From: a virus
Lineage: Duplodnaviria; Caudoviricetes
Virus record (IMG/VR): IMGVR_UViG_2508501066_000002
Span: 1-64,000 of that record
Strand: one strand, 5' to 3'
Length of the DNA stretch: 64,000 nucleotides
A program made the translations under genes and the position numbers. Each line of letters opens with the position of its first letter. Positions within the stretch are counted from its first letter, which is position 1. Under the pieces are notes generated by a model that saw only the letters and a list, made by a program, of their open reading frames with translations, did not search any database and had not been told where the DNA came from. Of the stretch, positions 4,373 to 55,467 are shown in pieces.

Positions 4373-4474
4373 GTCACGTCACCACAAGGGATTCGAGAGC
4401 TCGATTAAAGGCGCATCGACGACCTCGACCGGGGCGGGAGCATATGCCCTTGATCGGGCCACTCAGAACAATTT

Positions 4475-5089
4475 TCATTCGTCCTCCTTCGCCAGCGCGG
4501 CATCGGCGATCTGGTAGATGTCTCCCAGCAGGGCGGTGAGTGCATACGGATTGGGATTCATCGCCAAATTCATCGTGCTTCGGCTCAGGACCTCTTCCAG
4601 CGCCTCTTTTAGTTGAGTAGCCCTCTCCGGCAGGTCGTGCCACGAATGCCAGACGCCGTCGGGCGGCTCTCCTTTCAAGGCCGCAGCAGTGCGCGTCAAG
4701 AGGTGGCTGAGCTTCTCGCGGATTTCGTCAGACTCCATGAGGTCAGCGTGCAGCCTTTTCACCTCAGCCCGCAGCGTCTCGATCTCTGCCTGCTGCGCGT
4801 CCCGTTCTTCCAACAGCGCCCGGATGGTGTCGGGGTCGCAGGCGGCGATGAGGGCGGCGTTGGCGCGGGCGTTTGGAAACGTCTGTAGGCGCTCGCCAAA
4901 TCCAACGTAGTCGTCTGGCGTGACATCCTCGTACAGCGTGCATATGATAGGATCATCCCAGCGGCGGCCCTCGTTTTCCGGCAGGGCGACAGTCACATAG
5001 GGATAGCTATCGCCGTCGATCACGCGCCTAGAGCCAGGCGTCGGCTCCATCGCCAGCGCGTCGCGGATTTCCTGGTAGCGGTCAGTCAT
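4475..5089 (-). CDS. Ead/Ea22-like accessory protein
   Basis: TPG..., ANAALIAACDPDTIRALLEE plus coiled coil. Confidence 0.65.
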   Translation of the reverse strand: MTDRYQEIRDALAMEPTPGSRRVIDGDSYPYVTVALPENEGRRWDDPIICTLYEDVTPDDYVGFGERLQTFPNARANAALIAACDPDTIRALLEERDAQQAEIETLRAEVKRLHADLMESDEIREKLSHLLTRTAAALKGEPPDGVWHSWHDLPERATQLKEALEEVLSRSTMNLAMNPNPYALTALLGDIYQIADAALAKEDE

Positions 5090-5490
5090 TACTTGCCCTC
5101 CTTGTGCATGGCGGCAGGGGCAGCATCACACTCGGGGAAAACACCGTACTCGCTCAGTGAGCCGCTTGGGTCATACCGGCGGCGCTTTGGCTGGACCTGG
5201 GTGATACTGAGCAGGCGCTTCTCGTAGATGCGCACCTCGACAGGCCCATCCGGGATGTACATCGCCGCGTAGTGGCGGGCCTCAGACTGGGCGGAGGCAT
5301 AGTCGGCTTCTCTGCCACCAGCCTGCAAAACTCCATCCTGCCACACCTCGTACTCGTACTCGGCCTCCGCCCGCAGCATGGCTTCTACGCGGGCTACACC
5401 ATCCACGATTCCCTCGCCGGGGGCCAACTGCGCGGCCGCCCATATTTCATGCGACAGCGCCTTGAGGTTTTTCTCGTAGCGGTCAGTCAT
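5089..5490 (-). CDS. hypothetical accessory protein
   Basis: translationally coupled ORF with AGGAG RBS. Confidence 0.55.
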   Translation of the reverse strand: MTDRYEKNLKALSHEIWAAAQLAPGEGIVDGVARVEAMLRAEAEYEYEVWQDGVLQAGGREADYASAQSEARHYAAMYIPDGPVEVRIYEKRLLSITQVQPKRRRYDPSGSLSEYGVFPECDAAPAAMHKEGK

Positions 5491-5854
5491 TGCTGTTCTC
5501 CTTTGACAGCGCGGCCTTCATCTTTCGCCGCATGTTCCAGTAATCGCACGTGCACACTCCGACCGAGTGGTCGCACGTGTCCATATCCTCATCGAGCCAA
5601 TCCAGTTCGTTGTCAGCGTCTTTCAGTGCTTCGCGTAGGCGCTCGTTCTCAGCCTTCAACGCTGCCAGCGCCTCGCGCAGCGCGTCCACCTCCGCCCGCA
5701 GCGCCTCGATCTCGGCGTCCACGTCTGCGGCCAGATAGTAGTCGCCGTCGTCAGCACGGACACACTCGGCTACGTATTCGCCAGTGCCGATATACACAGT
5801 GTCTGGCTCGTACCTTGCAAGCGTCTTGATGGACGCCACAGGTTTCTCACTCAT
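5483..5854 (-). CDS. hypothetical coiled-coil protein
   Basis: AGGAGG RBS, coupled to neighbours. Confidence 0.55.
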   Translation of the reverse strand: MSEKPVASIKTLARYEPDTVYIGTGEYVAECVRADDGDYYLAADVDAEIEALRAEVDALREALAALKAENERLREALKDADNELDWLDEDMDTCDHSVGVCTCDYWNMRRKMKAALSKENSND

Positions 5855-5864
5855 GGCTGGCCTC

Positions 5865-6398
5865 CTAATGAACATTCATTCGTGCGGCCAAGTCTTCGAT
5901 GGCAGCGGCACACTCGGCCCCGCACGCTAGCCTGTTTTCCTTCGCCAGCGCTTCATCATCCAAGTCCTTGCAAACCCGCGCCGCCTCTTTCAACACGTCG
6001 CGCATGTCATCTACATATTCTTGTGCAGCACGCCGGTTGCCATCCCACCGACGCTCGGTTTCTCGGCGCAACTCACGCATCAAGTCGCGGATGATGGCCG
6101 CAGCGTCCGTAAGCGCCACGAACAACACGGGATCGCTTTTGTACTGCTCCGCTAGCTTGGAGCAGATGTGCGCATGGTCGTCCGCCAGCCAGTCGCGCTC
6201 TAGCACGGCAGGCTGCTGCGCGACGGTCAACTGCGCCGCCAGCCGCTCGATCTCCCTCACCGCGCACTCGTAGTGCTTCGGGCCCCAGCCCCAGCATTCG
6301 TCTTCGCGGTCCTCCGGGCCCGCCAGAAGCATCAACCCTTTCGGCGTCTCGCCGTCGTTGAGGATCGGCCCCGGCGTGTGCTTTGCTTCTTTCTTCAT
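5865..6398 (-). CDS. hypothetical accessory protein
   Basis: KHTPGP N-terminus and AARVC...ECAAAI C-terminus typical of small phage early proteins. Confidence 0.55.
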   Translation of the reverse strand: MKKEAKHTPGPILNDGETPKGLMLLAGPEDREDECWGWGPKHYECAVREIERLAAQLTVAQQPAVLERDWLADDHAHICSKLAEQYKSDPVLFVALTDAAAIIRDLMRELRRETERRWDGNRRAAQEYVDDMRDVLKEAARVCKDLDDEALAKENRLACGAECAAAIEDLAARMNVH

Positions 6399-37579: not shown

Positions 37580-40214
37580 CTAATACGACAAACCTGCAAC
37601 CTCGACCTTCCGCGTGGGGAATTCGAATTCGATCGGGTAGCCCAAGGCGTCGCTGGAATGCTCAACCCCCATTTCCTTGTCGATCTCTTTCGAACCGTCA
37701 TCCTTGTAGAGCGTCTGTTCCAACGACTGAATGAGATATCGACACGACTTGTCGATGCGAAGACGAACCGTACCATCGGCGGCCCGAAGCTGCCGATTCA
37801 CGGCGTTCACCCGATCCTGAACGAAGGGATGCTTCTTCCGATACTTAATGCGCTTGAAGCCTTTCTCGCGAAAGACGTCGAGCGAGGATTCGCCGCGCGC
37901 GTGCTGCTTGTTGCCGCCGGCGGGGTCGGGGTAGATCGTGACGCGATTGTGATAGCGCCAATAGCGACGCTCGATCTCCTCCGAGACTTCGACCACGTTC
38001 GAGTCGTACTTGACGATCTCGTCGACTACCCATAGTTCGCCGTTTCGCTGCGGCTGCAGCACGACCGACGACATCGGGTTGATGTTGAAGTCCTGTCCAA
38101 TCCAAATCGGCAAATCCGGGTTGAAGGGATAATCGCCGACATGCACGTTGCGATCGAAGGGGTAGTAGACCCGACCGCTCGAACTTTCGAACGAGTTAAA
38201 GTTGTTGGCGCCGGACGCCAGCAGATAACTGTGATCTGGACTATCGACCGTGAGGTTCCACACGGTCTCCTGTACGGGGCGGATGATACGCCGGATCACC
38301 TTGATCCGTAGCAGGCCCAGCTCCTCGATCCAGCGCTCGCCGATCCAGGCATCGAAGTGCGGGAAGGCGTATCCGGCGGTATTGGTCTTGCCGCGATCTA
38401 CATCTCCCAGGAAGCGATGAGCGGCGCCAGAGGTTATGCCCATTGCCTTGCCGATCTCCTTGTAGGTGGCGCCCTCCTCGCGCATCCGAAGGGCAGTCTT
38501 ACGTCGCTGGTCGGCGGCGGTGCGGTAGGCACGCAGATACTTCGCCCACTGCCAGGCAAGCGTCGCCTTGTGCTTGCAGTACAGATACCCCACGTCCTCA
38601 AAAAACCGGATCAGGTTGTCGGCCCCGGACGCAACCCGCAACCAGTACGTCCGGTACTCGCGACCGGTCACGGTAACGCTGGATTCGACACCGAGGTCCA
38701 GCAAAAGACTCTGCAACTGTCTAAAGTAACGAAGCCCGTCAACCCCCTCGCGCTTGCACATGCACAATACGGGCTGTCGTGGAAGGCGGCTCTTGCTGGA
38801 TTTGTCCTTGACGGGGGCCGTGCCTTCCGCACCGAAAAGCGCCGCGATATAGGCGCGCTTTTCGGCGCGCTCCCCGTCCAATATCCATTGCGGCACGCCG
38901 AACTCGATCCTCGTCTTGGCCCCAATGGGCGCGCCGGCGGCCATCATCGCCTCGCAGGCCCGCTTGCCGATCTGCAGTTGGTAGCCGTCATCCCGCCCGG
39001 GGATGTTTTTCTTGCGGCGCACCTGCGCCTTGACCACCAAGCCGAGCAGCGTGCAGTCCTCGAGGATAACCTTCAAATCAGCCTCGACATTGCTGTAGAA
39101 CGCACCCTGCAGGCGCTCGTAGATACTGACCTCGCCCGAGCGCCGCCGATAGCGCTCTTCTTTTCTGACGATGACCCCGTCGCCAGTCAAGTAGCCGACT
39201 AGCGCAGCGAGGCGCTCGTCGTCCGTCGTTAGCCTCTGGTCGGGCGGGGAGAACTCCAAAAAATCAGCGTCGCAGAGTAGAACCGCTTCAGACTTCACAG
39301 TGCACCTTAAACCTATGATGAGCGCTGGCGGAAATGACTTCGCCGGTCTCGAGTGTAACGTCGCAAATGTCTTTCTTGCCGGTTTCGCCAACCGCCTGCA
39401 CTTTGGTCGGCACGCGCTTACCCTCCTCCGTCACATGCACCAGAAGATCGCCGACAAGGACATCGGAAATTTTCTTGGTGCGACCGTTCCACAACAGCAC
39501 GAGTGTGTCGGGAAGATGGCAAGCCATAAATTCCTGACGAAACGATTTCTCATCCATGTCCGCACGCGCCTGCTCGATTTCTTCCAGCGGCACGAAGGGC
39601 GAGGTGGTGGTCGGAAATTGCCAGGAATGCCAGCGCCGATTGCGCCGATTGGTTTCGTTCTGCCCCAGAAGCCAGAGCTTGTAAAGCAGATTGAAGCCCT
39701 TCGGGGAGCCGATAAAGATCGCGTGCCCGCCCGTGGTGGCAAGCGTCGGGCGCAAGACTTTCGTCCAGACCTCTTCCCGCATGTCCTGCACTTCGTCCAG
39801 AACGATGAAGTGCAAACCGACGCCTCTCAGCGTATCCGGACTGTCCGCGCCTTTGAGCTCGATCGTTGTTCCGTTGATCAGCCACAAAGTCATCGTGGTC
39901 TCGTTCGGCTGCCGACGCATCCAACGTCTCGGGATGGTGTCGAGCATGTCGTACCACATGATCTGCTTCGCCATCCGATAGGTGGGCGCCACGTACCAAA
40001 TCTTCCGCCTAGGAAGATGCGCCTTGTCGATGATGGCGGCCTTCGACACGGTCGATTTTCCCCAGCGTCGGCCGGCTGCGACTACCCGAAATCGCGCCGG
40101 ATTGGAAAAGACCTCGAATTGACCGGGATGCAGACGAATCGGCACGCGCTCGGCGTAGGGGCTGACGATCTTGCGTTCGGGAATCTGGATCTTGAGATCC
40201 GACGGCAAAATCAC
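37580..40214 (-). CDS. terL: terminase large subunit with intein, split over two frames (39288-40214 and 37580-39298)
   Basis: AGRRWGKS, LRG, LDEVQD, GSPKG in ORF1; GQDFN, YPDPAG, HSSDALGY in ORF2. Confidence 0.92.
38195..39521 (-). mobile_element. intein with LAGLIDADG endonuclease in terL
   Basis: EFMA|CHLPDT...ASAHHRF; GYLTGDG and AALFGAEG; VWNLTV...NNFN|SFES; 1327 nt (3n+1). Confidence 0.9.
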
Positions 40215-44690: not shown

Positions 44691-44776
44691 TAAAAGTTGT
44701 GTATTGTAAGACTTATAAATAAGTAATTGGTGACTGACAATAGCTATACCTGAATTTTGAGCATTTGGCAAGCCCT

Positions 44777-47389
44777 ATGTCGTCTATCGTTCAGATTTTA
44801 CACAACCCGGTCGTCGCGAAGCTGAAGCATGCCGACCGTGAAGCGCAACTTGCAGTATCTGAACTTCTAAGCTACGTCGTATCGGGGGCCGAGTTCACCA
44901 ATCGCTTTCGGGATCGCAATTGGGACGGACGGCAGACGCTGTTCGACTTCGCGACCGGCAAATTTCCCGCAGGCTTCGTGCCGCGCGTGATGCACCATCT
45001 GCAAAAGCTCGGCTACACGGTGCAGTCTCTGTGCGCACCTCTGCCGGCCCCTCTGGGGCTCGAAGGCGACGCGCTCGAAAATTTCGACGGACTGGGCGGC
45101 GATACACGCTACGAATATCAGAAAAGAACCGTCGATGAGTTGGAAAAACGCGGGCGGCTGATCGCGATGCTCGCCACCGGCTGTCACGCCAAAGGCACAA
45201 AGATTTTGATGTTTGACGGATCGTTAAAAAACGTCGAAGACATCAAAGTTGGCGATGTATTGATGGGTCCGGACAGCAAATCCAGAAACGTACTGCGTCT
45301 TTATCGCGGCAGGGAAGAAATGTTCAAAATTATTCCCACGAAGGGCGATTCGTATGTCGTCAATCGATCACACGTTTTATCGCTTCGTATGACGGGTCTT
45401 AGGGGGCGCAAAGTCGACGGATATGAAGATGGGGAAATCGTAAACATTTCAGTAAACGATTATTTGCAAAAGGGAAAAACATTCAAACATTGCGCAAAAG
45501 GATGGCGAACGGGTGTCGAATTCCCACACGTTGATCTTCCGAAAGCTCTTTCACCCTATCAGCTCGGTGTTTGGCTTGGAGACGAAAGTAAAGACGCTTC
45601 TGCCATTACGTCGATCGACAAAGGAAAGGTTCCAAATCATGTTCTTCGCGAATTAAAAAATCAAAATTTATTGTTCAACAAGCACATACCAAGCATCTAC
45701 AAGGTCAACTCCAGTCAGAATCGACTGGAACTCTTAGCGGGACTCATTGATACGGATGGCTATCTTCATCATGGGTTTGTTGAAATCGTTACCAAATACG
45801 AAGTATTAGCAAACGATATTGCGTTTTTAGCAAGATCGCTTGGCTTTGCCGCCTACATAAAGCAAACAAAGAAGAGCATCAAATCAACGGGCTTTTGCGG
45901 GAATTACTGGAGAATCAGCATTTTCGGCGATCTTGATCAAATCCCATGCCGAGTCAAACGTCATCAAGCTCAAGAAAGACGGCAAGTCAAAAATGTTCTA
46001 AACGTTGGAATTCGTGTTGAATCTGTAGGAGAGGGTGATTACTACGGATTTGAAGTTGATGGGGATCATTTGTACGTCATGGGTGATTTTACCGTCACGC
46101 ACAACTCCGGCAAATCGCGCGTAGCGTCAATGGCTTACGCACGCATCAAACGCCCGACGCTGTTTTTGACCACTCGGAGCGTTCTGATGTATCAGATCAA
46201 GAAACGTTTCGAAAAAGATCATAACATTCGCGTTGGCGTACTTGGCGACGGTGAATGGAGCCCAACAAATGAAATAAATGTCGGTATGGTTCAAACACTC
46301 GCGCCTTTGCTGACCCCGCTCGATGTCGAGGTCGAAATCGCGCGCTGGAATCGATCCTGGAAAGATGGCATTGTCAAAAAGCTCGCCGAGCGGCGCGACG
46401 CGCTCATCAAAGCCAAGATGATGCCGGCCGAGGTTGAGAAGATTCTGGCTAAAGAGCTAAAAGCCTATCGGGATCAAAAGCCCGATCCGGATCAAATTCG
46501 AAGGTCTGTCACGGCCCGCGTCGAGCAGCACAACAAGCGGCATCGGCAGACGCTCGACCTGCTTTCGAAATTTGAATTCGTGATCGGCGAAGAAGCGCAC
46601 GAAGCGGGCGGCGATGGCTATTACAACGTCATTCAGGCGTGCAAGAACGCTTATTATCGATTGGCACTGACCGCGACCCCCTTCATGCGGTCGGATGGCG
46701 AAGACAACATGCGGCTGATGGCGGCGTTCGGCGAGATCGGCATTCGGGTCACCGAAAAGCGGTTGATCGACGCCGGCATTCTGGCAAAGCCCTATTTCAA
46801 ATACGTCGACACCGAGCGCCCCAAGAATCTCTACAGAACCACCGGCTGGCAGCGAGCCTACAAATACGGCATCGTCGAAAATCCGCACCGCAACGGCGTC
46901 ATCATCAACGAAGCGCTACGGGCCAAGCAATACGGTCTTCCGACTTTAATTCTGGTTCAGCACACGCGGCATGGCGAGCTCTTGAAGAAAGCTTTGAAAC
47001 AAGCCGGGGCGACGGTGGAGTTCATTCACGGCGCACACGAGCAGAGGGAACGCGAGCATTGTCTGAATGCACTCGCCTGCCGCAAGCTCGACATTCTGAT
47101 CGGGTCCACCATACTTGACGTGGGTGTCGACGTACCGGCTGTCGGCGTCATCATTCTGGCCGGCGGCGGCAAGGCCGAAGTCGCCTTGAGACAGCGGATC
47201 GGGCGAGGTCTTCGTGCCAAGAAAAACGGCCCCAACGTTGCGTTCATCTTGGATTTCGTCGATTCCGAAAACGAACATCTCCGGAATCACGGCAAGCAAC
47301 GTCGCGCCATCGTTCAGCAAACGCCCGGGTTCGCCGAGGGCATCCTGGCGCCGGGTCAGGATTTCGATTATTCCATTTTTGGGAAATAG
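44777..47389 (+). CDS. SF2 (DEAH-like) helicase with intein
   Basis: YEYQ, ATG|SGKS, EEAHE, LTATP, GVDVP, QRIGRGLR. Confidence 0.92.
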   Translation: MSSIVQILHNPVVAKLKHADREAQLAVSELLSYVVSGAEFTNRFRDRNWDGRQTLFDFATGKFPAGFVPRVMHHLQKLGYTVQSLCAPLPAPLGLEGDALENFDGLGGDTRYEYQKRTVDELEKRGRLIAMLATGCHAKGTKILMFDGSLKNVEDIKVGDVLMGPDSKSRNVLRLYRGREEMFKIIPTKGDSYVVNRSHVLSLRMTGLRGRKVDGYEDGEIVNISVNDYLQKGKTFKHCAKGWRTGVEFPHVDLPKALSPYQLGVWLGDESKDASAITSIDKGKVPNHVLRELKNQNLLFNKHIPSIYKVNSSQNRLELLAGLIDTDGYLHHGFVEIVTKYEVLANDIAFLARSLGFAAYIKQTKKSIKSTGFCGNYWRISIFGDLDQIPCRVKRHQAQERRQVKNVLNVGIRVESVGEGDYYGFEVDGDHLYVMGDFTVTHNSGKSRVASMAYARIKRPTLFLTTRSVLMYQIKKRFEKDHNIRVGVLGDGEWSPTNEINVGMVQTLAPLLTPLDVEVEIARWNRSWKDGIVKKLAERRDALIKAKMMPAEVEKILAKELKAYRDQKPDPDQIRRSVTARVEQHNKRHRQTLDLLSKFEFVIGEEAHEAGGDGYYNVIQACKNAYYRLALTATPFMRSDGEDNMRLMAAFGEIGIRVTEKRLIDAGILAKPYFKYVDTERPKNLYRTTGWQRAYKYGIVENPHRNGVIINEALRAKQYGLPTLILVQHTRHGELLKKALKQAGATVEFIHGAHEQREREHCLNALACRKLDILIGSTILDVGVDVPAVGVIILAGGGKAEVALRQRIGRGLRAKKNGPNVAFILDFVDSENEHLRNHGKQRRAIVQQTPGFAEGILAPGQDFDYSIFGK
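45182..46105 (+). mobile_element. intein (308 aa) in helicase Walker A
   Basis: G|CHAKGT...NRSH...LAGLIDTDG...YYGFEV...VTHN|S; lower GC than the host gene. Confidence 0.92.
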
Positions 47390-47391
47390 CC

Positions 47392-47631
47392 ATGCACGAT
47401 CTAAATATCACGACGCAAGACATTTTGATGGGACTGATGATTATCGGATTCATTGTCCACAGTATCTATACGACGTGCAGTCTCAAATCGTTGACCGTCG
47501 CGATTATCGACGTGCTCGCGGAACCGGTGAATGAATCGGGTCAGAATGAATCGGGTCAGTCCGAGCCGAGTTCGATCGGGAGTGAATACGGCGACACACA
47601 AGCGGGATTTGTTGTTGACGGCGATGTATAG
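47392..47631 (+). CDS. small membrane protein
   Basis: one TM segment, acidic tail. Confidence 0.45.
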   Translation: MHDLNITTQDILMGLMIIGFIVHSIYTTCSLKSLTVAIIDVLAEPVNESGQNESGQSEPSSIGSEYGDTQAGFVVDGDV

Positions 47632-47703
47632 TCACGAATGACTTGTTATTGTATACTATTGTATACTATATGCTGATATTCGATACAAGCGTAGGGGTGC
47701 AAT

Positions 47704-48042
47704 ATGAGTGAAAACAAAAGCAAAACGGTTGTCAAACCGGGCTATAAGCGGATGACTTACGAACTGTCTGAAAAGGCGCTTGCAAAAGTGCGTGCATTGG
47801 GCAGCAAAATCGATCTTGCCAATTCAGACGTTGTGGATGCGGCGATTCTGTCGCTGAATACTCAGGATCAAGGTTTCTTGGCAGAGGTCAGTCGCATCAA
47901 AAACGAACGAGAGGTAGCCCGGCGCAATGCCGGAAGACTTCGCGCGGATCTTCTGGAAATCTCGCCGCAGCTCGCAAAGCTTTCGGGCGACGAACTGTTG
48001 CGATTGATCGAAATGGTCAAGGGACAAAGCGTTTCGCCTTGA
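47704..48042 (+). CDS. putative ribbon-helix-helix-like protein
   Basis: KRMTYELSEKA strand-helix-helix pattern; TATACT boxes and operator upstream. Confidence 0.5.
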   Translation: MSENKSKTVVKPGYKRMTYELSEKALAKVRALGSKIDLANSDVVDAAILSLNTQDQGFLAEVSRIKNEREVARRNAGRLRADLLEISPQLAKLSGDELLRLIEMVKGQSVSP

Positions 48043-48112
48043 TCTCGGGGACGTCGATATCGCGCTTGATGCCCCGTGTGTCAAGCGCGATACTTAGTCA
48101 GAAATAAATTAA

Positions 48113-48517
48113 TTGAAAGGGGAAATCGTGGATTTAGACAATTCTCATGACGACGCTATGTTGCGAGGAAAGATTGAGAACAAACGCATTGAGCATTACA
48201 AGAAATATCTAACAGAGAAGTACCGTCCGCCAAGTAAAGGTGGAAACACAAGCGCGCGCCACGCGCACGTTCTGATCATTGACGGCGAGAAATACAGTTT
48301 CCTTGCACTTGGAGCCCAGCAATGGGCTTATAAATCGGACACGGTCTCGTTTGAATACGAGATCACAAAGGAAGGATACAGAAACATCATTAAGGAAACC
48401 TTTGTTGCTCGGACAAAGGACGGCGTCGAAGTCGTTCGTGGAAATCGCGGATTTAAGTCACGGCTACGAACAGCAAAAACGCGCATGCCCGCAAGTCGCC
48501 GTGAGTGGCGCGATTAA
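48113..48517 (+). CDS. hypothetical basic protein
   Basis: 134-aa ORF. Confidence 0.55.
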   Translation: MKGEIVDLDNSHDDAMLRGKIENKRIEHYKKYLTEKYRPPSKGGNTSARHAHVLIIDGEKYSFLALGAQQWAYKSDTVSFEYEITKEGYRNIIKETFVARTKDGVEVVRGNRGFKSRLRTAKTRMPASRREWRD

Positions 48518-48633
48518 CTGCCAATAGCCGCAGGACGCGCCATTGAGGGAAAGCCGCCGTTCAATGCTGTGGTGGTTGAGCAGGACTGGCCGGAATTTGA
48601 ACCGACGTGGGAAGCCATCGAGGCGCGGATGAC

Positions 48634-48693
48634 GGCTAACGTCTGAATTAAGCCGCGCCACGAAGTGGCGTCGGCTTGAATGAAATATTAGCG
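48634..48693 (-). other. integron attC site (R'' AAC mutated to AAT)
   Basis: minus: CGCTAATATTTCATTCAAGCCGACGCCACTTCGTGGCGCGGCTTAATTCAGACGTTAGCC, closely resembling the aadA/aadB-type attC as I recall it. Confidence 0.85.
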
Positions 48694-48891
48694 GGAAAGC
48701 CCGCCGAAGACGATGATGACATTTGACCAATGGTGGGACAAGGAAACAGAAGCGGTCGGGAGAAAAGGCATGGGACGAAATGGTGTGTTTATCAGCTTGC
48801 GAAACGCGCATGGGTAGCGGCAGAGATGAATGAACGGGAAGCGTGCGCGAAAGTCTGCGAATCTTTCGGTGGAAGACGAAGGAGACATGAC

Positions 48892-49134
48892 GTGACGAAC
48901 GAACAGAACCAAAACGAAGACGCAGAAGGCCGGTCGAACTCTAAGGCGTTGTTATGCGCGGATATCCCGAAAGGCTGGATTCCGCTGATTGAAGCGGTGG
49001 ATTTCGTGAACAAGAACATAATGTCGAAGAACCCGCGATTTGTGCTCGACAACTGGGACCACAAGTACACGCATATTCGCGTGGACATGCGTACCGGATT
49101 GGCAATCATCCTGCCTGGAAACAAGAGCGCCTAA
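48892..49134 (+). CDS. hypothetical cassette-like protein
   Basis: AGGAG RBS + GTG; contains GTTATGCGC and stops in GCGCCTAAC. Confidence 0.55.
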   Translation: MTNEQNQNEDAEGRSNSKALLCADIPKGWIPLIEAVDFVNKNIMSKNPRFVLDNWDHKYTHIRVDMRTGLAIILPGNKSA

Positions 49135-49228
49135 CTTAGATTTAGACACCACTTTAGGCGCCTAATCCTGTAACAGCCGACAAATACACCCGCCACGAAG
49201 TGGCGTCGGCTTGAATGAATTGTTAGTT
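49129..49228 (-). other. composite/degenerate attC site
   Basis: GCCTAAC at 49129; 49191-49218 repeats 48656-48683; ends GTTAGTT. Confidence 0.75.
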
Positions 49229-49248
49229 GGCATATTGGAGAACAAACA

Positions 49249-49653
49249 ATGAGAACGATAATTGCAGGAAGCCGAAGCTGCGTTGACATGCGACACCTTC
49301 TTGCGGCAATTGAAGCTTGTGGTTGGATTCCAACACAGGTTGTAAGCGGAACGGCTGCTGGGGCCGACAGACTTGGCGAGCAGTGGGCCGAAGTCGCTGG
49401 CGTGCCGTGTGTGAGGTTTCCCGCGGACTGGAATACGCACGGAAAGCGCGCCGGGTTTCTGCGAAACGAACAGATGGCGGATAACGCCGATGCTCTAATT
49501 GCCCTGTGGGACGGCGAAAGTCGCGGCACGAAACACATGATCGACATAGCAAAGCGAAAAGGACTCGTTGTGTATGTCCACATGATAGCTAACGCTTCGC
49601 CTGAGGGGCGCGGCACTGTGAAGTCTGAACAGGGAAAGAAGCTTCGATATTGA
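49249..49653 (+). CDS. YspA/SLOG-family (DUF2493-like) protein
   Basis: IIAGSR, VSGTAAGADRLG, FPADW, AGFLRN.QM, WDGESRGTKHMI. Confidence 0.85.
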   Translation: MRTIIAGSRSCVDMRHLLAAIEACGWIPTQVVSGTAAGADRLGEQWAEVAGVPCVRFPADWNTHGKRAGFLRNEQMADNADALIALWDGESRGTKHMIDIAKRKGLVVYVHMIANASPEGRGTVKSEQGKKLRY

Positions 49654-49657
49654 GAAG

Positions 49658-49984
49658 TTAATCCAGACACTTCACCTTCATGATCCAGGTGATGGCATCA
49701 TCCCCAAACATATACGTGCCGGTCTTGAAAGGCTTCTGATCGATCACTTCGAACGACCGGCACGCCCCATCCAATTTCGTTGCGATCATTTCTCGTCGAT
49801 CTTCCTCTTTGTTGCCGTCCCAGCCGATATCGTGGGCGTTCTTGATCAGGAATTTGTAGTCGTAGCTCGAATCGTCGGGTGGATCGACTCTTAAAATCCC
49901 GTGCGCCTCGGACGCGGCAACGTACATCTTCGTTCCGGCGCATCCCGTCAGGAGTAACAAAGTTAAGGACAAGATCAGTTTCAT
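49658..49984 (-). CDS. lipoprotein
   Basis: MKLILSLTLLLLTGC lipobox, AAGGAG RBS. Confidence 0.75.
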   Translation of the reverse strand: MKLILSLTLLLLTGCAGTKMYVAASEAHGILRVDPPDDSSYDYKFLIKNAHDIGWDGNKEEDRREMIATKLDGACRSFEVIDQKPFKTGTYMFGDDAITWIMKVKCLD

Positions 49985-50075
49985 CGAAATCTCCTTAAGT
50001 TCGTTCCGGATATTATTGGGCATGGAACAAGGCATGTTAGTGGGTTGAACAAGTTTAGTCTAGACGTGGTTTAAT

Positions 50076-50354
50076 GTGCGTTTTAAAGGAGGATGCGTGA
50101 GGCGTATCGACGACGAAATCGTGATCTGGGCGATCGAGGACGCAGCGAAGGCCGCAGTCGAACGACTCGATCAGACGTTTGAGCCGAAGCTGTCGGGAGA
50201 ATTTAGAGCGCATCTTGAGCGGGTATTGGGGGATATGCTTAAGGGGCGTGATCCCTATTTCGTCAAGCGAAAAGAGGCAGTCGGGCTAAGAGTGTATGTA
50301 TTGGGGAAAGAGCGGTTGGTTTTGAATAAGAACGATTTCGATGTTCGGGGGTAG
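50076..50354 (+). CDS. hypothetical protein
   Basis: ORF with AGGAGG before an internal GTG. Confidence 0.5.
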   Translation: MRFKGGCVRRIDDEIVIWAIEDAAKAAVERLDQTFEPKLSGEFRAHLERVLGDMLKGRDPYFVKRKEAVGLRVYVLGKERLVLNKNDFDVRG

Positions 50355-50481
50355 GGTTATGGAGTATAAGGATTGCGGAGGTTTGAGGGGCGGCTATGGG
50401 TGTAAGGGCTCGGAACCTGGAGAGGGGTGATTTTGGAGGGACCATCCTCAGCTCGACGCGCTCTGTTCTAAGACATTCGTT

Positions 50482-50560
50482 TGCAAGTACCATGCCAAGC
50501 AAGTTGGCATGGTACTTGCTGAGCAAGCTTCATGCCAAACAAATCGGCATGAAGCTTGCT
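50482..50560. promoter_or_regulatory. four sigma54-like -24/-12 boxes in two inverted pairs
   Basis: TGGCAT-N5-TTGCW at 50482-97(-), 50505-20(+), 50522-37(-); CGGCAT variant 50545-60(+). Confidence 0.6.
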
Positions 50561-50567
50561 GGGCAAG

Positions 50568-51242
50568 TTATACTAACTTGCCCAAAATTTCCTTTCCTTC
50601 ATCTGTTAGTTCGAAGCTTGTGCCTCGAAAGCTTGTGACTAGATTCCCGTCCACATTATGACTTGCTCTAGCCAAGCCTAGCCATACAAACGCTCTAAGA
50701 GCGTTTCTAATGGCTGATAGACTTCCACTATTGCCAGTTATACTGGCAATAGTCTCACTTGTCAAAGACTGCGAAGCTCTTTTCATGCCGTTAAAGGCAT
50801 GAATTGCCGGCATTGGCAACTTGCCGTTGCCAATAACAGCATCGGCCACTTGCCGCATTCTAAGCAACGACTTTGCGTTGCTTGGATTGGCCAAGTATTC
50901 TTTCATTCTCGGAGTTACTGCATGTTGCAGTAGAAGCTCTTGAGCGCTTTTAGCGCTCACAAAAGCGCTCAAGACTTTTTCTCTTGTGGCGCCGGCGCTT
51001 GCTTTGCCGCCGGCTTGTTGATTGGCTTGCCTCCATGCTTTAATACGCTCGATCGAAGCTTGCAATGCAACAGGCAGGCTGTTTATGTTTATGTCGTCGA
51101 CTTGGTCTAACACCAAGTCGACGGCTTGCTCTTGCGCCGGCGTTGACGCGCCGGCGCTTATGCTTGCTTCTAGCGCGTCAATCAGACGCGCTAGTTCATC
51201 TTGATTGAGTTCTTGATTGAGTTCTTGCTTTTTATTAGCCAT
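50568..51242 (-). CDS. hypothetical protein with C-terminal winged helix; hairpin-tiled CDS
   Basis: GAGGTG RBS; ...LRAFVWLGLA...FELTDEGKEIL wing signature. Confidence 0.65.
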   Translation of the reverse strand: MANKKQELNQELNQDELARLIDALEASISAGASTPAQEQAVDLVLDQVDDININSLPVALQASIERIKAWRQANQQAGGKASAGATREKVLSAFVSAKSAQELLLQHAVTPRMKEYLANPSNAKSLLRMRQVADAVIGNGKLPMPAIHAFNGMKRASQSLTSETIASITGNSGSLSAIRNALRAFVWLGLARASHNVDGNLVTSFRGTSFELTDEGKEILGKLV

Positions 51243-51492
51243 TTTTCACCTCAGCTTGTACATTTTGTTGAATCCTAAACCCTAGCAAGCTTAACGCTTG
51301 CCGTTGCGATCCTTGCAACTTGCAAACAAGTTTACTCACTTGTGACTTACTTTGCAAGCATAAAAAACTAAGCAATGCGTATATTTTTTGTGAAAGAAAT
51401 TGTTTCTGAAAAGCAAACAATCATGGCACAATTATTATCGATACAAGAATCATTCCATAAACATACACTAATGAATACCACAAGAAATTGTT

Positions 51493-51567
51493 TGGTATCA
51501 CTTGTGCATGTACAAAAATTATGCCAAGCAATATGGCACAAGTATTGCTAAAGCAAGCTTCATGCCA
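51493..51567. promoter_or_regulatory. second cluster of sigma54-like boxes
   Basis: TGGCACAAGTATTGCT 51534-49(+), TGGCATGAAGCTTGCT 51552-67(-), two weaker copies 51493-51526. Confidence 0.6.
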
Positions 51568-51569
51568 TT

Positions 51570-51615
51570 GATAATGATAATCATTCTCACTTGTAAATGA
51601 GAATCACTTGCATTT
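51570..51615. promoter_or_regulatory. tandem Fur-box-like sites
   Basis: GATAATGATAATCATTCTC (18/19 to the E. coli consensus) then AAATGAGAATCACTTGCATTT. Confidence 0.7.
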
Positions 51616-51881
51616 GTAAATACTTGTCATTCTCACTCCCGCGCCCGCGTCCATGCCGAATCCACGCCGTTCGCCCGCCGTTCGCCCGCCCAAGGGCGCC
51701 CTTGGCTGTGGTCAGACCCAGCCGTTCGGTTATGGTTACCGAGGGCCGTTCGGTGGGTCCGAGCCGCGGGATTGGTCAAGTCCAGCCGTTCGGTTACGGT
51801 AAACTCAAGCCGTTTGGCTGCCCATGGGTGAACCTTGGGCCTGGTAGAGTGAGGAAAAAGGCGCATCCTTGCGCCGCTATC

Positions 51882-52187
51882 TCAGTACAGAATAACTCGG
51901 TGACTCTCGCAACAGCATTCGCAGCGTATCTCGACCCGACCCGACTCAGGGCCACCATAGCTCTCGTCGACCCACTGATGTCCTTTCCATGCGCACACGA
52001 GCATGGCGAATGACATCTGAATGAGATAGATCGCGATAAAACAGGCGTATTCGAGATCCGTCTGCTGCTTCTTCCCATCTTCCGGCGCAAAGGCGCTGTG
52101 ATTGTGATTGAAATCCTGGATCTCCGACCGGGTCATCATCGCAACGTCTCGAGCCCATTTCTTAAGTCTTTGTGCCCTGGTTTTCAT
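51882..52187 (-). CDS. hypothetical protein with C-terminal Zn-ribbon-like motif
   Basis: GAGGA RBS, upstream phage promoter; CAWKGH...CECC. Confidence 0.6.
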   Translation of the reverse strand: MKTRAQRLKKWARDVAMMTRSEIQDFNHNHSAFAPEDGKKQQTDLEYACFIAIYLIQMSFAMLVCAWKGHQWVDESYGGPESGRVEIRCECCCESHRVILY

Positions 52188-52548
52188 GTTTTATCCTCGT
52201 TGTGTTGTGCGTTCTTGTTTAGGGCGCATACAGTCTGACGAGGCATATCAGGGATGTGTCTGGAAATATTTCTGGCACCGAGCCGCCAAACCCTTGGCAC
52301 AGGAAGGCCCTTGGGAGCCTCATGGCGGCACGAAATCGGTAAACGGATGTCTATCTAGCCCCAAGGGCAAAAACGGCTCTCCTTGGGCCGGAGAATGGCT
52401 CGGTAAACCCATGGCTGTGGCTGGCTGTGGATTTACCGAGGGCCGTTCGGTCGGTCCAAGCCGTGGGTGTGGGAACCTTGGGCCGTTCGGTTCCCATGAT
52501 TGATTCTTGAGCATTTTTGAAGGGCGCATCCGTGCGCCCTTGATCGTC

Positions 52549-52878
52549 TTATGCCGCCACAAGACGGGTGACGGCAACGATCTGCCCGGACTCGTTGCGC
52601 ACCGCCGTCGGTCCGGTGTCCGGAGCATAGACACCGGCTCGGCCTGGCACTGCACTCAGTACCAATGACGATACAAGACAAGGTACGCCCTCCTCCGGTA
52701 GGCCGGTTACCTCGCCGAACCGGCGTCGAACGATCGGTGCCCCGGTGATGGGGCACGTGCCGACCACCTCATCGGTGGTCGATACCCGAGCCACCGTCCC
52801 GCTAGGCGGGATAGTGGTCTCGGTGCCATCCTGGCACCGAATAACAATTGGGTGGGGAGTCAGGTTGATAATCTTCAT
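52549..52878 (-). CDS. hypothetical phage protein
   Basis: MKIINLTPH...PSG.VARV...IVRR.FG...LP...VSSLV...APDTG..VRN..GQI. Confidence 0.7.
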   Translation of the reverse strand: MKIINLTPHPIVIRCQDGTETTIPPSGTVARVSTTDEVVGTCPITGAPIVRRRFGEVTGLPEEGVPCLVSSLVLSAVPGRAGVYAPDTGPTAVRNESGQIVAVTRLVAA

Positions 52879-53147
52879 TGTTTTTCTCCTTTCAGAAAAA
52901 ACCGCCCGGGAGTGCCGGGATTCCCCGGGATGTGGACGAATTCATTTGCGAACTCGTCCGGTAAGTAGAAGCTTTCATAGCCTGGTTTGTCCCGGCCCAG
53001 GCGCAACGACACGCCAAGCTCGGCGAGGCGGGTCTTAGCGGCGGGAGATACGCGGACGTATCCCCCTACCAAAGTGCGGCCGTCGCCGCGAAAATTCGTG
53101 ATCATAAAATACTCCAATTTAGAATGATAAAAGTCTAAATAAGGCAC
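52875..53147 (-). CDS. hypothetical protein
   Basis: coupled to the downstream gene; start uncertain. Confidence 0.45.
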   Translation of the reverse strand: MPYLDFYHSKLEYFMITNFRGDGRTLVGGYVRVSPAAKTRLAELGVSLRLGRDKPGYESFYLPDEFANEFVHIPGNPGTPGRFFLKGEKQ

Positions 53148-53177
53148 ATCCTTGTGCCGTGTTCCGTCAGCCGCTTT

Positions 53178-53468
53178 TTACACGCGGCGGTCAGCATGCC
53201 GGACCCAATCCGGTATGAGTTGGGGCAGACCCGTCCTTGCGGCGGCAAGCAGGCTCGCCCGGGCGTACATAGCTCCGTTCGAGCTCTTTCCGCGCAGATG
53301 CGGCAGCGTCGCTTTCACGGCGCGAAGGACCGCTTTCTTGCGGCCCTCTTCCAAGATGGCAAGAGCTTCAAAGATATCGTCCTTGATATCGCACGCCCGA
53401 GCATACGCTCGGCGCGCGCTGTACAGGTCGTCACGAAGTTGACGGGCTATCAAAATAAGGTCTTTCAT
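53178..53468 (-). CDS. hypothetical protein
   Basis: GAGGA RBS, upstream phage promoter. Confidence 0.55.
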   Translation of the reverse strand: MKDLILIARQLRDDLYSARRAYARACDIKDDIFEALAILEEGRKKAVLRAVKATLPHLRGKSSNGAMYARASLLAAARTGLPQLIPDWVRHADRRV

Positions 53469-53590
53469 TTTTCTTCCTCTCTTGTTGTGCGTTGCGAGTA
53501 TATTGTCGTTTGTAGAATGTGGAAGAACATCGGGAATCTGTCAAAACCCGCAAGCTTGCCGTGGTCGGCGGGAATAAAGAAAAGGGCGCT

Positions 53591-53800
53591 TCATGCGCCC
53601 TTAAGATGAACCTCCTTGTAGATATATTTTCCCTCGTTAGCCAATTTCAGGCTCTCGGCCCACTCGATGCCATCTGGCTTTTGGAGTCGCCGATCGCTCC
53701 AAATCCAGATTTCTTCAACCATGTTCGCCCGAACACGGATGTCGGCATTCGGGTTTAAAGATATAATGGTGAAGAGGGCCTTTCCGTCAATTTCGAACAT
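53591..53800 (-). CDS. hypothetical protein
   Basis: AGGAG RBS before ATG at 53800. Confidence 0.5.
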   Translation of the reverse strand: MFEIDGKALFTIISLNPNADIRVRANMVEEIWIWSDRRLQKPDGIEWAESLKLANEGKYIYKEVHLKGA

Positions 53801-54861: not shown

Positions 54862-55429
54862 GTTTCACCTCTTGTTTCATGACTCATTCAAGATGAGTAC
54901 AGTCTGACGAGGCAAAGAAGGGATGTGTTAGGGAATTCAGCGGTGACTTGATTTAAGACGATTTAAGACGGGTTTTGAGCTGACCCGCTACCCTTGGGTC
55001 AGTTTGCTACAAACATGGCTTAAAATCGATTCTAGACGGCTTCCTGACGCTTTTTCTCGGGCTGTTTGACACGGTTTCGAACAAATTAACTTAAAACTCA
55101 CCGGAAGCTTCAAAAACACCCGGAACGCGAAGTGCCGCCCGGCGAGCGAAGCGAGCGTTGGGAGGCACGCAGCGTTCCGGCCGCGCCGAAGGCGCGCTTG
55201 TTCTCTTGATTCCGAGGTTCGGATTGTTTACTGTCGGGAAGATTGAGTTGCCTGTCTGGCGGTAGGCTTAATTGTATTACTACGTAATACAATTAAACCG
55301 AACATCAAAGATTTAAGTCAGTGGCGATTTTACTCTGAACTCGCGGAAGTTTTAAACCTTCCGGCGCGCGCGGAGGCCAAGCCTTGAAGGCGAGCGAAGC
55401 GAGCTCAAGGCTTGGCCGTAGCGTCGCGC

Positions 55430-55467
55430 GTGGTTTCCCCTAGGTATATATACCTAGGGGAAACCAC
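55430..55467. repeat. perfect 38-bp palindrome
   Basis: GTGGTTTCCCCTAGGTATA|TATACCTAGGGGAAACCAC. Confidence 0.95.

What the first reader, a model, noticed from the sequence alone, without database searches (positions are those of the whole stretch)
50483..51301. A protein-coding gene tiled with perfect DNA hairpins
Seen: perfect stems of 7-16 bp at 50483-519, 50522-560, 50561-583 (three back to back at the stop), 50688-706, 50727-753, 50782-803, 50812-834, 50916-932, 50941-959, 51095-123, 51134-157 and 51170-194, plus a 6-bp stem at 51285-301. Nine lie wholly inside the 224-aa ORF, which also shows distinct word usage (GCTT/CAAG). I saw no comparable density in other genes. Inference: the segment is selected for ssDNA/cruciform or RNA structure, e.g. 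first-entering or terminal DNA, a single-strand initiation region or a dual-function RNA.
Basis: partly seen in the sequence, partly recalled or inferred. Interest (0 to 1): 0.8.

Follow-up and report, generated by a model that had tools for sequence, protein, structure and literature searches.

The report
Phage genes tiled with perfect hairpins
Two real protein-coding genes in the anti-defence region of a prophage are packed with short perfect DNA hairpins far beyond chance, a rare "coding palindrome" pattern that also turns up in two unrelated phages and whose purpose is still open.

Summary
The 224-aa ORF (50568-51242, minus) holds 12 perfect stems of at least 7 bp, against 1.6 in synonymous-codon shuffles (0 of 1000 reach it). 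Of the 35 stems of at least 9 bp in the 102-kb provirus, 10 lie in 50483-51194. The ORF is a true gene: three homologues share 70-79% identity, it is an orphan family, and its C-terminus looks like a winged helix.

It is not unique. A gene 1.3 kb away (52549-52878) has 6 stems against 0.33 expected, and I identify it as a Crn4b-type ring nuclease, a likely anti-CRISPR. Its distant homologues lack the stems. Near relatives in four metagenome runs vary in loops and between stems but hardly in the stem arms.

Only long perfect stems are in excess, with no surplus of 4-6 bp or imperfect stems. Neither strand folds better than the other.

Unrelated phage contigs show the same tiling: two ORFs in L055, and the Crn4b gene in L063. 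Seven Crn4b genes of catalogued phages do not.

Best reading (0.4): fold-back (template-switch) copies that are kept by selection on nucleic-acid structure, most likely in the transcripts. I found nothing that points to terminal DNA or an origin. The closest precedent is the coding palindromes of hairworm mitochondria.

The parts
50568..51242 (-). Gene 1: a 224-aa orphan protein with a GAGGTG ribosome-binding site upstream. The N-terminal half is variable and the C-terminal ~90 residues look like a winged helix. Its codon usage is foreign to the rest of the genome.
   Evidence: ORF and translation. Three homologues at 79, 76 and 70% identity with in-frame indels. Only one 50% cluster among 1.84 billion representatives. 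No Pfam, PHROG or NCBIfam family. Atlas structure rows resembling MarR/PadR winged-helix proteins over residues 133-224, a lead only. Codon usage CAA 13:1, AGA 7 of 12 Arg, non-stem GC3 0.38.
50688..51194 (.). Twelve perfect in-ORF stems (stem bp / loop nt): 50688-706 (9/1), 50727-753 (12/3), 50782-803 (8/6), 50812-834 (9/5), 50862-883 (8/6), 50916-932 (7/3), 50938-974 (14/9), nested 50941-959 (8/3), 50991-51014 (7/10), 51095-123 (12/5), 51134-157 (9/6), 51170-194 (10/5).
   Evidence: The stems fall in all three codon phases. They use rare codons (CTA, AGA, ATA) and, in the variable N-terminal half, lineage-specific amino acids.
50483..50519 (.). Hairpin H1: 16-bp stem, 5-nt loop, downstream of gene 1 where it meets the convergent plus-strand operon.
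   Evidence: In the relatives only the loop and the innermost pair change (sites 50498, 50501, 50503).
50522..50560 (.). Hairpin H2: 15-bp stem, 9-nt loop.
   Evidence: The relatives differ only in the loop (50539, 50543).
50560..50584 (.). Hairpin H3: 11-bp stem that includes the stop codon of gene 1. It scores as terminator-like on the plus strand.
   Evidence: One arm variant, 50576 A>G, is seen in two runs.
51512..51569 (.). Third copy of the ~50-nt repeat that makes up H1/H2, about 270 bp upstream of the gene 1 start. It scores as terminator-like on the minus strand.
   Evidence: Direct-repeat families D2 and D7. 6 of the 8 GGCAY-N5-TTGCW matches in the genome lie in these three copies. 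Terminator scan.
51285..51301 (.).
52549..52878 (-). Gene 2: a 109-aa Crn4b-type ring nuclease, a likely anti-type III CRISPR or anti-CBASS enzyme. It is the second hairpin-tiled gene.
   Evidence: phmmer against PDB entry 9r7b 'Crn4b', E 5e-5. AlphaFold pLDDT 96.7, and the top 7 Foldseek hits are all Crn4 structures (TM 0.71, next hit E>1). T7, H9 and R94 are conserved. Matches phrog_30542.
52574..52840 (.). Six perfect in-ORF stems of gene 2: 52574-598 (7/11), 52613-637 (8/9), 52702-724 (7/9), 52737-756 (7/6), 52761-781 (8/5), 52820-840 (9/3).
   Evidence: 6 observed against 0.33 +/- 0.58 (0 of 500 shuffles). RNA MFE z -5.4. Absent from the homologues in L048 and L049.
52520..52541 (.). 9-bp hairpin just downstream of gene 2. 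It belongs to a repeated hairpin family with further copies at 51859 and 53142.
   Evidence: (families D1, D4).

Best explanation
These are 'coding palindromes': short (7-16 bp) perfect inverted repeats written into the reading frames of two real genes of an anti-defence gene cluster. The two genes are an orphan protein with a winged-helix-like C-terminus and a Crn4b-type ring nuclease. The repeats were made possible by synonymous codon choice and, where the protein tolerates it, by amino-acid changes.

Inferred origin: fold-back (template-switch) copying, which makes one arm the exact complement of the other in a single event.

Shown: the excess is far beyond what the proteins demand. It is lineage-specific. 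In near relatives the arms are conserved while the loops and the sequence between stems drift.

Inferred function: the stems are kept because of the structure they give to the single-stranded nucleic acid. The most likely place is the mRNAs of these genes, which would fold into a chain of stable hairpins with little free single strand. That would change their decay, their translation, or their accessibility to single-strand-specific nucleases or guide RNAs. Nothing found here marks a genome end or an origin.
For: - Excess over synonymous shuffles in gene 1 (12 against 1.63, 0 of 1000; MFE z -8.6) and in gene 2 (6 against 0.33, 0 of 500; z -5.4).
- Both are true genes.
- The stems are confined to particular genes. 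The 101-aa gene between them and 48.5-50.5 kb have none, and the other 127 ORFs of the genome sit near a median of 0.88 per kb.
- Only long perfect stems are in excess. Stems of 4-6 bp number 18, 9 and 2 against 17, 6.4 and 1.7 expected. Complementarity beyond the first mismatch is 24 of 72 and 11 of 36, near the 25% expected. That is what a copying event produces.
- In gene 2, 4 of the 6 stems differ from the outgroups mainly in the arm that lies in the variable peptide.
- Maintenance: of the 32 listed sites (50483-51041) where relatives differ, 4 lie in arms, which make up 44% of the bases (p 1.5e-4). Of 18 third-codon sites, 0 lie in arms where 37% was expected (p 2.7e-4).
- Stem codons are richer in GC3 than non-stem codons (0.59 against 0.38, and 0.88 against 0.58).
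- The same tiling recurs in unrelated phage contigs: L055 ORFs with 12 against 1.27 and 7 against 0.54 (0 of 500 each), and the L063 Crn4b gene with 6 against 0.64 (0 of 300).
Against: - There is no strand signal. Sense MFE is -277.2 and antisense -268.8, and in shuffles the difference is 0.9 +/- 5.9. Only 16 of 218 predicted pairs are G-U.
- The three arm variants in the main stems that were seen in relatives (50576, 50917, 50918) give G-T on the plus strand, which is a C-A mismatch in the sense mRNA of gene 1.
- The all-perfect pattern fits a neutral copying or conversion process equally well.
- Stems are not conserved in the distant homologues of gene 2: 36-38% of stem bases differ against 29-36% outside stems.
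- Six of the 12 gene 1 stems lie in stretches too diverged to lay in most relatives (50881-50992 and 51041-51240).
- The variant test uses only the 42 best-supported of 491 differing sites, and those sites are not independent.
- Seven Crn4b genes of catalogued phages show no excess (3 against 2.47).
- No expression or probing data exist.
Confidence: 0.4

Rival explanations
1. Non-adaptive coding palindromes. In this reading the stems are by-products of frequent template switching or intrastrand conversion, which creates and re-perfects inverted repeats wherever the protein tolerates them. They have no function of their own. This is the reading proposed for hairworm mitochondria.
For: The excess has a binary character, with only long perfect stems over-represented and sharp borders. 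There is no strand asymmetry. Stems are gained and lost between homologues. There are hyper-diverged patches, such as 9 differences in 29 nt at 50890-50918 and same-length diverged replacements. The Discussion of PMC6649704 argues this way, and PMC8794818 (abstract) shows that template switching can create and maintain stems.
Against: The rest of the genome is replicated by the same machinery and sits at baseline. Neutral conversion should let arms diverge in pairs, yet 0 of 18 listed third-position differences are in arms. Stem codons are GC-enriched. All six ORFs with at least 6 stems and 0 of 200 shuffles lie in G000, L055 or L063 (none among 987 ORFs of the control loci). Three of the six lie within 4 kb of a Crn4b gene and two are Crn4b genes themselves.
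Confidence: 0.3
2. DNA-level function. Here the hairpins would form in single-stranded or supercoiled DNA and serve as a replication or priming signal, a recombination or break hot spot (the phage encodes SbcC/SbcD-like nucleases), or a signal in first-entering or terminal DNA.
For: The stems are pure Watson-Crick pairs and both strands fold equally well. Iteron-like repeats and an AT-rich stretch lie between the two genes. SbcC- and SbcD-like genes lie at 78563-81618. In T5 the injection-stop region is rich in palindromes (bioRxiv 10.1101/866236, passages read).
Against: The stems sit in two separate genes and skip the DNA between them. They all differ in sequence, so no common protein site exists. 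Most are too short (7-12 bp) to extrude as cruciforms (general knowledge). The T5 region is non-coding, is conserved in order across T5-like phages and carries DnaA boxes, so it is unlike this one. The record is an integrated provirus whose ends lie elsewhere.
Confidence: 0.12
3. Plus-strand function. The hairpins would act in the antisense direction of gene 1, either as a series of terminators or insulators that stop read-through from the convergent operon (44765-50354), or as a structured antisense RNA.
For: 5 of the 11 terminator-like sites in 50000-53600 are plus-strand hairpins inside or at the end of gene 1 (shuffles give 4.3 +/- 1.7 sites in all). All three arm variants in the main stems keep G-T pairing on the plus strand.
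Against: The T-tracts are weak. Gene 2 has no such tails and no convergent operon facing it. Three of three variants has a chance probability of 0.125. The antisense MFE is no better than the sense MFE.
Confidence: 0.08

Closest known systems
[quoted passage not shown]
   Same: Perfect inverted repeats embedded in functional protein-coding genes, built by using codon degeneracy. The repeats are perfect or absent, with no excess of imperfect ones. They are gained and lost between relatives, and their function is unknown. Template switching or conversion is the proposed origin.
   Different: The hairworm repeats reach 284 bp and are spread across the mitochondrial genome. Here the stems are 7-16 bp and confined to two genes (plus flanking hairpins) of a 102-kb phage, and they lie in an anti-defence gene cluster.
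Template-switch mutations that create and maintain hairpins (PMC8794818, abstract read; PMC8604942, search listing only)
   Same: A single replication event can write a perfect reverse-complement copy next to its template. This explains perfect stems with sharp borders and clustered substitutions in one arm.
   Different: Those studies describe RNA genes and yeast coding genes as scattered single events. They do not report a dozen stems in one 675-nt gene.
Palindrome-rich injection-stop region of phage T5 (bioRxiv 10.1101/866236, passages read)
   Same: A phage segment of 1-2 kb crowded with palindromes and inverted repeats whose function is unknown.
   Different: The T5 region is untranslated, mixes direct repeats with DnaA boxes, lies in a terminal repeat and is conserved in order across T5-like phages. 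Here the stems are inside ORFs, are unique in sequence and are not conserved in distant homologues.
Crn4b ring nucleases (PMC12830947, passages read; PDB 9r7b)
   Same: Gene 2 shares their sequence motif (INLTPH), fold, size and conserved Thr/His/Arg. The paper reports phage and plasmid members as likely anti-CRISPRs.
   Different: Nothing about nucleic-acid structure in crn4 genes appears in the passages I read. Enzymatic activity was not tested here.
Rickettsia palindromic elements and other in-frame palindromic insertions (recalled; mentioned in the Discussion of PMC6649704)
   Same: Palindromic DNA residing inside intact protein-coding genes.
   Different: Those are copies of a mobile repeat family, inserted as extra residues and decaying with time. 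Here every stem has its own sequence, and gene 2 has the same length as the aligned part of its homologues (109 codons, no gaps). The stems therefore arose by substitution, not insertion.

Membership tests
Coding palindromes (Nematomorpha type) | Perfect inverted repeats lying inside functional protein-coding sequence | tested here: met
   12 stems in gene 1 and 6 in gene 2. Both genes have conserved homologues.
Coding palindromes (Nematomorpha type) | Binary identity: an excess of perfect repeats with no excess of imperfect ones | tested here: met
   There is no excess of 4-6 bp stems. Complementarity beyond the first mismatch is 24 of 72 and 11 of 36.
Coding palindromes (Nematomorpha type) | Dynamic gain and loss between related genes | tested here: met
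   The gene 2 homologues in L048 and L049 have 1 stem each, and the stem sites are not conserved.
Coding palindromes (Nematomorpha type) | Long arms (tens to hundreds of bp), spread over many genes of the genome | tested here: not met
   The longest in-ORF stem is 14 bp. Only 2 of about 129 ORFs are affected.
Crn4b ring nuclease (gene 2 only) | Sequence and fold similarity to solved Crn4 structures | tested here: met
   phmmer E 5e-5 to 9r7b. The top 7 Foldseek hits are all Crn4, TM 0.71, with the next hit at E>1.
Crn4b ring nuclease (gene 2 only) | Conserved catalytic Thr/His and Arg | tested here: met
   T7 and H9 are invariant and R94 nearly invariant among 18 homologues. R94 aligns with the arginine of the solved chain. 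The residues named in PMC12830947 come from passages read.
Crn4b ring nuclease (gene 2 only) | Degrades cyclic oligoadenylates | not testable with these tools
   This needs an enzyme assay.
T5-type injection-stop or terminal repeat region | Non-coding, in a terminal repeat, with direct repeats and DnaA boxes conserved in order | tested here: not met
   The stems are in ORFs and the record is an integrated provirus. I did not scan for DnaA boxes.
Known structured RNA family (Rfam) | Match to a covariance model | tested here: not met
   No match at the gathering threshold across the window. The only sub-threshold match in 50300-53400 is mir-9, at 28 bits against a 58.6 gathering score, which I take as chance.
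Single-strand hairpin promoters (phage N4 type; recalled) | Several hairpins sharing a conserved stem and loop sequence | tested here: not met
   All in-ORF stems and loops differ in sequence.
Intrinsic terminators (H1-H3 only) | GC-rich stem followed by a T-run | tested here: inconclusive
   H3 scores on the plus strand, and the upstream repeat copy scores on the minus strand. H1 and H2 have no T-run.

The most novel reading that the evidence does not exclude
The hairpin tiling could be a counter-defence trait of early anti-defence transcripts. Each stem would arise from a template-switch event that rewrites 7-16 nt at once and buries that stretch in a helix. The mRNAs of the ring nuclease and its neighbours would then escape RNA-guided recognition (type III or type VI CRISPR, which tolerate point mismatches) and/or cutting by the single-strand RNases that cyclic-oligoadenylate signalling switches on. 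The phage could then still make its ring nuclease in a cell whose alarm is already sounding.
Probability: 0.12. Interest if true: 0.85.

Novelty: new variant of a known kind. Interest (0 to 1): 0.68.

Why it matters
Inverted repeats are normally rare inside genes, because they constrain the protein and destabilise DNA. A phage gene with a dozen perfect stems, a ring-nuclease gene beside it with six, and the same tiling in two unrelated phage contigs all say that something writes structure into selected phage genes and keeps it there.

If the cause is mutational, this is a compact microbial system for studying template-switch mutation and "parasitic" palindromes. Such a system would be far easier to work with than hairworm mitochondria. 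If the cause is selection on the transcripts of anti-defence genes, it would be a new, nucleic-acid-level layer of the arms race between phages and RNA-sensing immunity, and it can be tested by synonymous recoding.

The work also annotates a prophage Crn4b homologue, and it shows that scanning for hairpin density can flag such loci.

Tried and rejected
**Homologue DNA for gene 1.**
- The search for related loci found none in viral, metagenome or genome contigs.
- tblastn found none in the 73 fetched loci or in the phage collection.
- DNA-level covariation for gene 1 could therefore only be approached through read laying.

**Protein-only test.** I asked whether the homologues' peptides allow more perfect stems than residue-shuffled peptides do. 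The test was too weak to decide. P0001 gave 30 against 15.2 +/- 5.9 (0 of 60), P0002 25 against 16.7 (6 of 60), P0003 27 against 18.3 (5 of 60) and P0004 23 against 20.8 (23 of 60).

**Gene 1 structure.** The AlphaFold model from 4 sequences was poor (pLDDT 50), so no fold search was run on it. A PDB sequence search gave nothing.

**Sigma-54 idea.** The arms of H1 and H2 and the upstream copy match GGCAY-N5-TTGCW (6 of the 8 matches in the genome). They occur as inverted, overlapping pairs, so I treat them as one repeated hairpin or terminator unit, not as promoters. This was not tested further.

**Crn4b family trait.** I asked whether hairpin enrichment is a trait of Crn4b genes.
- 24 non-redundant IMG/VR homologues gave 28 stems against 8.4 expected.
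- The background ratio of observed to expected for other ORFs is 1.36-1.46.
- An independent set of 7 catalogued phages gave 3 against 2.47.
- I reject it as a family-wide trait. It holds for a subset (L063, L062, L065, L054, L059).

**5' ends of the tiled genes.** I asked whether the translation start region is kept free of stems. In 3 of 5 genes the first 48-78 nt are free (P 0.03-0.33 each). In the other 2 a stem sits over the ribosome-binding site. This is inconclusive.

**Other checks.**
- tblastx of L054, L055, L059, L062, L063, L065 and L071 against the genome found nothing at E 1e-8.
- L048 and L049 share only gene 2 with the window.
- No RNA holder was listed among the sequencing runs, and contigs cannot show molecule ends. 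Expression and virion termini are therefore untested.
- An alignment-based scan for more Crn4b loci was not possible. The motif scan returned the same contigs plus one truncated gene.
- Assembly artefact is rejected, because contigs from four separate studies carry the stems.

**Literature.** Searches for phage coding palindromes found none in the held library. Supplementary files were not consulted. The supplementary figures of the Crn4 paper may list phage orthologues that I did not see.

Full report
**What the window is.** The window is the first 64 kb of a 102,110-bp IMG/VR provirus record. A protein identical to gene 1 is on record on a 2.65-Mb contig. It is a large tailed phage. It has a tape-measure protein, an intein-bearing UvsW-like helicase and ParB-like proteins. 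It also has a DNA polymerase, ribonucleotide reductase, SbcC- and SbcD-like nucleases and an integrase. The finding lies where a plus-strand operon (44765-50354) meets a run of small minus-strand genes.

- The 675-nt CDS 50568-51242 (minus) holds 12 perfect stems of at least 7 bp with loops of at most 12 nt.
- 1000 shuffles that keep the protein and the codon pool give 1.63 +/- 1.15, and none reaches 12.
- Seven stems have at least 9 bp, against 0.19 expected.
- The RNA MFE lies 8.6 sd below the shuffles.
- As ssDNA, 50483-51301 lies 15 sd below dinucleotide shuffles.
- 10 of the 35 stems of at least 9 bp in the whole genome lie in 50483-51194.
- The stems are not an assembly artefact, because contigs from four studies carry them.

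**Gene 1 is a real gene.**
- It has a ribosome-binding site.
- It has three homologues at 79, 76 and 70% identity, with in-frame indels and an invariant C-terminal half.
- The family is tiny. An exhaustive profile search of 1.84 billion representatives finds only its own cluster.
- No Pfam, PHROG or NCBIfam family matches.
- My model was poor. The Atlas model's nearest structures over residues 133-224 are MarR/PadR-type winged-helix proteins, which is a lead only.
- Its codon usage is foreign to the genome even outside the stems.
- It is bracketed by three copies of a ~50-nt hairpin unit, two after the stop codon (H1, H2) and one about 270 bp upstream of the start.

**It is not the only such gene.**
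- Gene 2 (52549-52878, minus) has 6 perfect stems against 0.33 +/- 0.58 (0 of 500) and an MFE z of -5.4.
- The 101-aa gene between the two, and 48.5-50.5 kb, have no stems.
- Gene 2 is a Crn4b-type ring nuclease. phmmer matches PDB 9r7b at E 5e-5 with the INLTPH motif.
- An AlphaFold model with pLDDT 96.7 has all seven top Foldseek hits in Crn4 structures, and nothing else below E 1.
- Thr7, His9 and Arg94 are conserved among 18 homologues.
- The Crn4 paper (passages read) reports broad cyclic-oligoadenylate degradation, and phage and plasmid Crn4b genes as likely anti-CRISPRs.
- In Bacillus phages Shbh1 and Mgbh1 the homologue sits beside Ocr-like and ArdA-like genes.
- The hairpin-tiled genes therefore lie in an anti-defence neighbourhood.

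**Character of the stems.**
- They all differ in sequence and loop, and they fall in all three codon phases.
- In the invariant C-terminal half of gene 1 they are made purely by codon choice, including rare codons. In variable parts they are made by lineage-specific residues.
- Only long perfect stems are in excess. Stems of 4-6 bp are at shuffle level, and complementarity stops at the first mismatch.
- Sense and antisense strands fold equally well, and G-U pairs are few.
- Stem codons are GC3-richer than non-stem codons.

**History.**
- Homologues of gene 2 at 80% and 64% amino-acid identity have one stem each, which is chance, and the stem sites are as diverged as the rest.
- In 4 of the 6 stems the changes sit mainly in the arm that encodes a variable peptide, while the arm in a conserved peptide matches the outgroups.
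- Relatives at roughly 85-95% identity in four metagenome runs cover the locus.
- Of the 32 listed sites in 50483-51041 where the relatives differ, 4 fall in arms, which make up 44% of the bases. Of 18 third-codon sites, none falls in arms, where 37% was expected.
- Loops are hit repeatedly (50539, 50543, 50697, 51000, 52624).
- Caveats: only 42 of 491 differing sites were listed, and the sites are linked. Two stretches holding half of gene 1's stems were too diverged to lay.
- The three arm changes in the main stems all give G-T on the plus strand, which is a mismatch in the sense mRNA.

**Recurrence elsewhere.** I scanned 73 IMG/VR loci (965 kb), fetched through homologues of two neighbouring genes.
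- L055 has 29 different perfect stems of at least 8 bp in 4053-6096. They tile two orphan ORFs: 12 against 1.27 and 7 against 0.54 (0 of 500 each).
- In L063 the Crn4b gene itself has 6 against 0.64 (0 of 300).
- Among 1,668 ORFs, the six with at least 6 stems and 0 of 200 shuffles all lie in G000, L055 or L063. None lies among the 987 ORFs of the control loci.
- 24 non-redundant Crn4b genes sum to 28 stems against 8.4 expected. The background observed-to-expected ratio is 1.36-1.46.
- Seven Crn4b genes of catalogued phages show 3 against 2.47.
- The trait is therefore recurrent but patchy, and it is not a property of the family.

**Interpretation.** The pattern has three features: a perfect-or-nothing excess, rapid turnover, and one arm rewritten to match the other. 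This is the pattern described for the coding palindromes of hairworm mitochondria, where template switching or conversion was proposed. It also fits what template-switch mutation produces.

The sparing of arms in near relatives, the GC-rich stems, and the restriction to particular genes in a genome otherwise at baseline all argue that the stems are retained for their structure. Gene-specificity points to the transcripts more than to the DNA. The lack of any strand signal keeps that step an inference.

I put 0.4 on "template-switch origin, kept for transcript structure". I put 0.3 on a non-adaptive conversion by-product, 0.12 on a DNA-level role and 0.08 on a plus-strand role. Nothing supports terminal or first-entering DNA.

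**Novelty.** My literature searches found coding palindromes only in mitochondria, and nothing on hairpin-tiled phage or anti-defence genes within the held library.

Noticed in passing
window 52549-52878 (-): An unannotated Crn4b-type ring nuclease (likely anti-type III CRISPR or anti-CBASS) in a prophage. PHROGs lists its family (phrog_30542) as of unknown function.
   Followed up: yes
L055 4053-6096 (IMG/VR contig, 34% GC): A 2-kb stretch with 29 different perfect stems of at least 8 bp. It covers intergenic DNA and two orphan ORFs (4732-5265 and 5256-5558) and lies 2 kb upstream of that phage's Crn4b homologue. It is denser than the stretch in the window.
   Followed up: partly
L063 7573-8125: The Crn4b homologue of an unrelated 53% GC contig carries six perfect stems, roughly at the same protein positions as three of the window's stems but with different sequences. 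The next gene carries three or four more.
   Followed up: partly
window 51570-51588: A sequence matching 18 of 19 positions of the Fur-box consensus as I recall it, inside an AT-rich stretch. 51575-51638 is the only part of 49-53 kb with DNA similarity (about 79%) to catalogued phages, namely phi92-like Escherichia phages, where it is unannotated.
   Followed up: no
window 51640-51830 and 52430-52500: Two blocks of iteron-like GCCGTTCGG-containing repeats (60-nt copies 80% alike) flank a 101-aa gene (51882-52187, minus). Each block adjoins a hairpin of a repeated family (51859, 52522, 53142). In the relatives one block carries a 16-nt deletion and an alternative 591-nt replacement. This could be an origin or a set of regulatory RNAs.
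   Followed up: no
window 55430-55467 and 55268-55296: A 38-bp perfect palindrome with no loop, and a 13-bp stem 130 bp upstream of it, both in an intergenic region.
   Followed up: no
window 50483-50562 and 51512-51569: Three copies of a ~50-nt unit whose arms match the sigma-54 promoter pattern GGCAY-N5-TTGCW (6 of the 8 matches in the genome). They are arranged as inverted, overlapping pairs that bracket gene 1.
   Followed up: partly
window 44765-47389, 37580-39391; G000 73512-77837: Intein or homing-endonuclease domains (Hint, LAGLIDADG) lie inside the UvsW-like helicase and inside a 603-aa ORF. The ribonucleotide reductase large subunit is 1441 aa with split matches, which suggests inteins there too.
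   Followed up: no
G000 95293-96597 and 101133-102110: An integrase gene lies near the right end of the record, and a second major-head-protein gene runs off that end. The provirus boundary may include part of another element.
   Followed up: no
L074 3355-3571, L075 386-548: Dense arrays of a 9-11-nt unit (ACGGTTCCC) in both orientations, iteron-like, about 4.5 kb from the Crn4b homologues of those contigs. This is a different kind of palindrome cluster, because one sequence is repeated.
   Followed up: no
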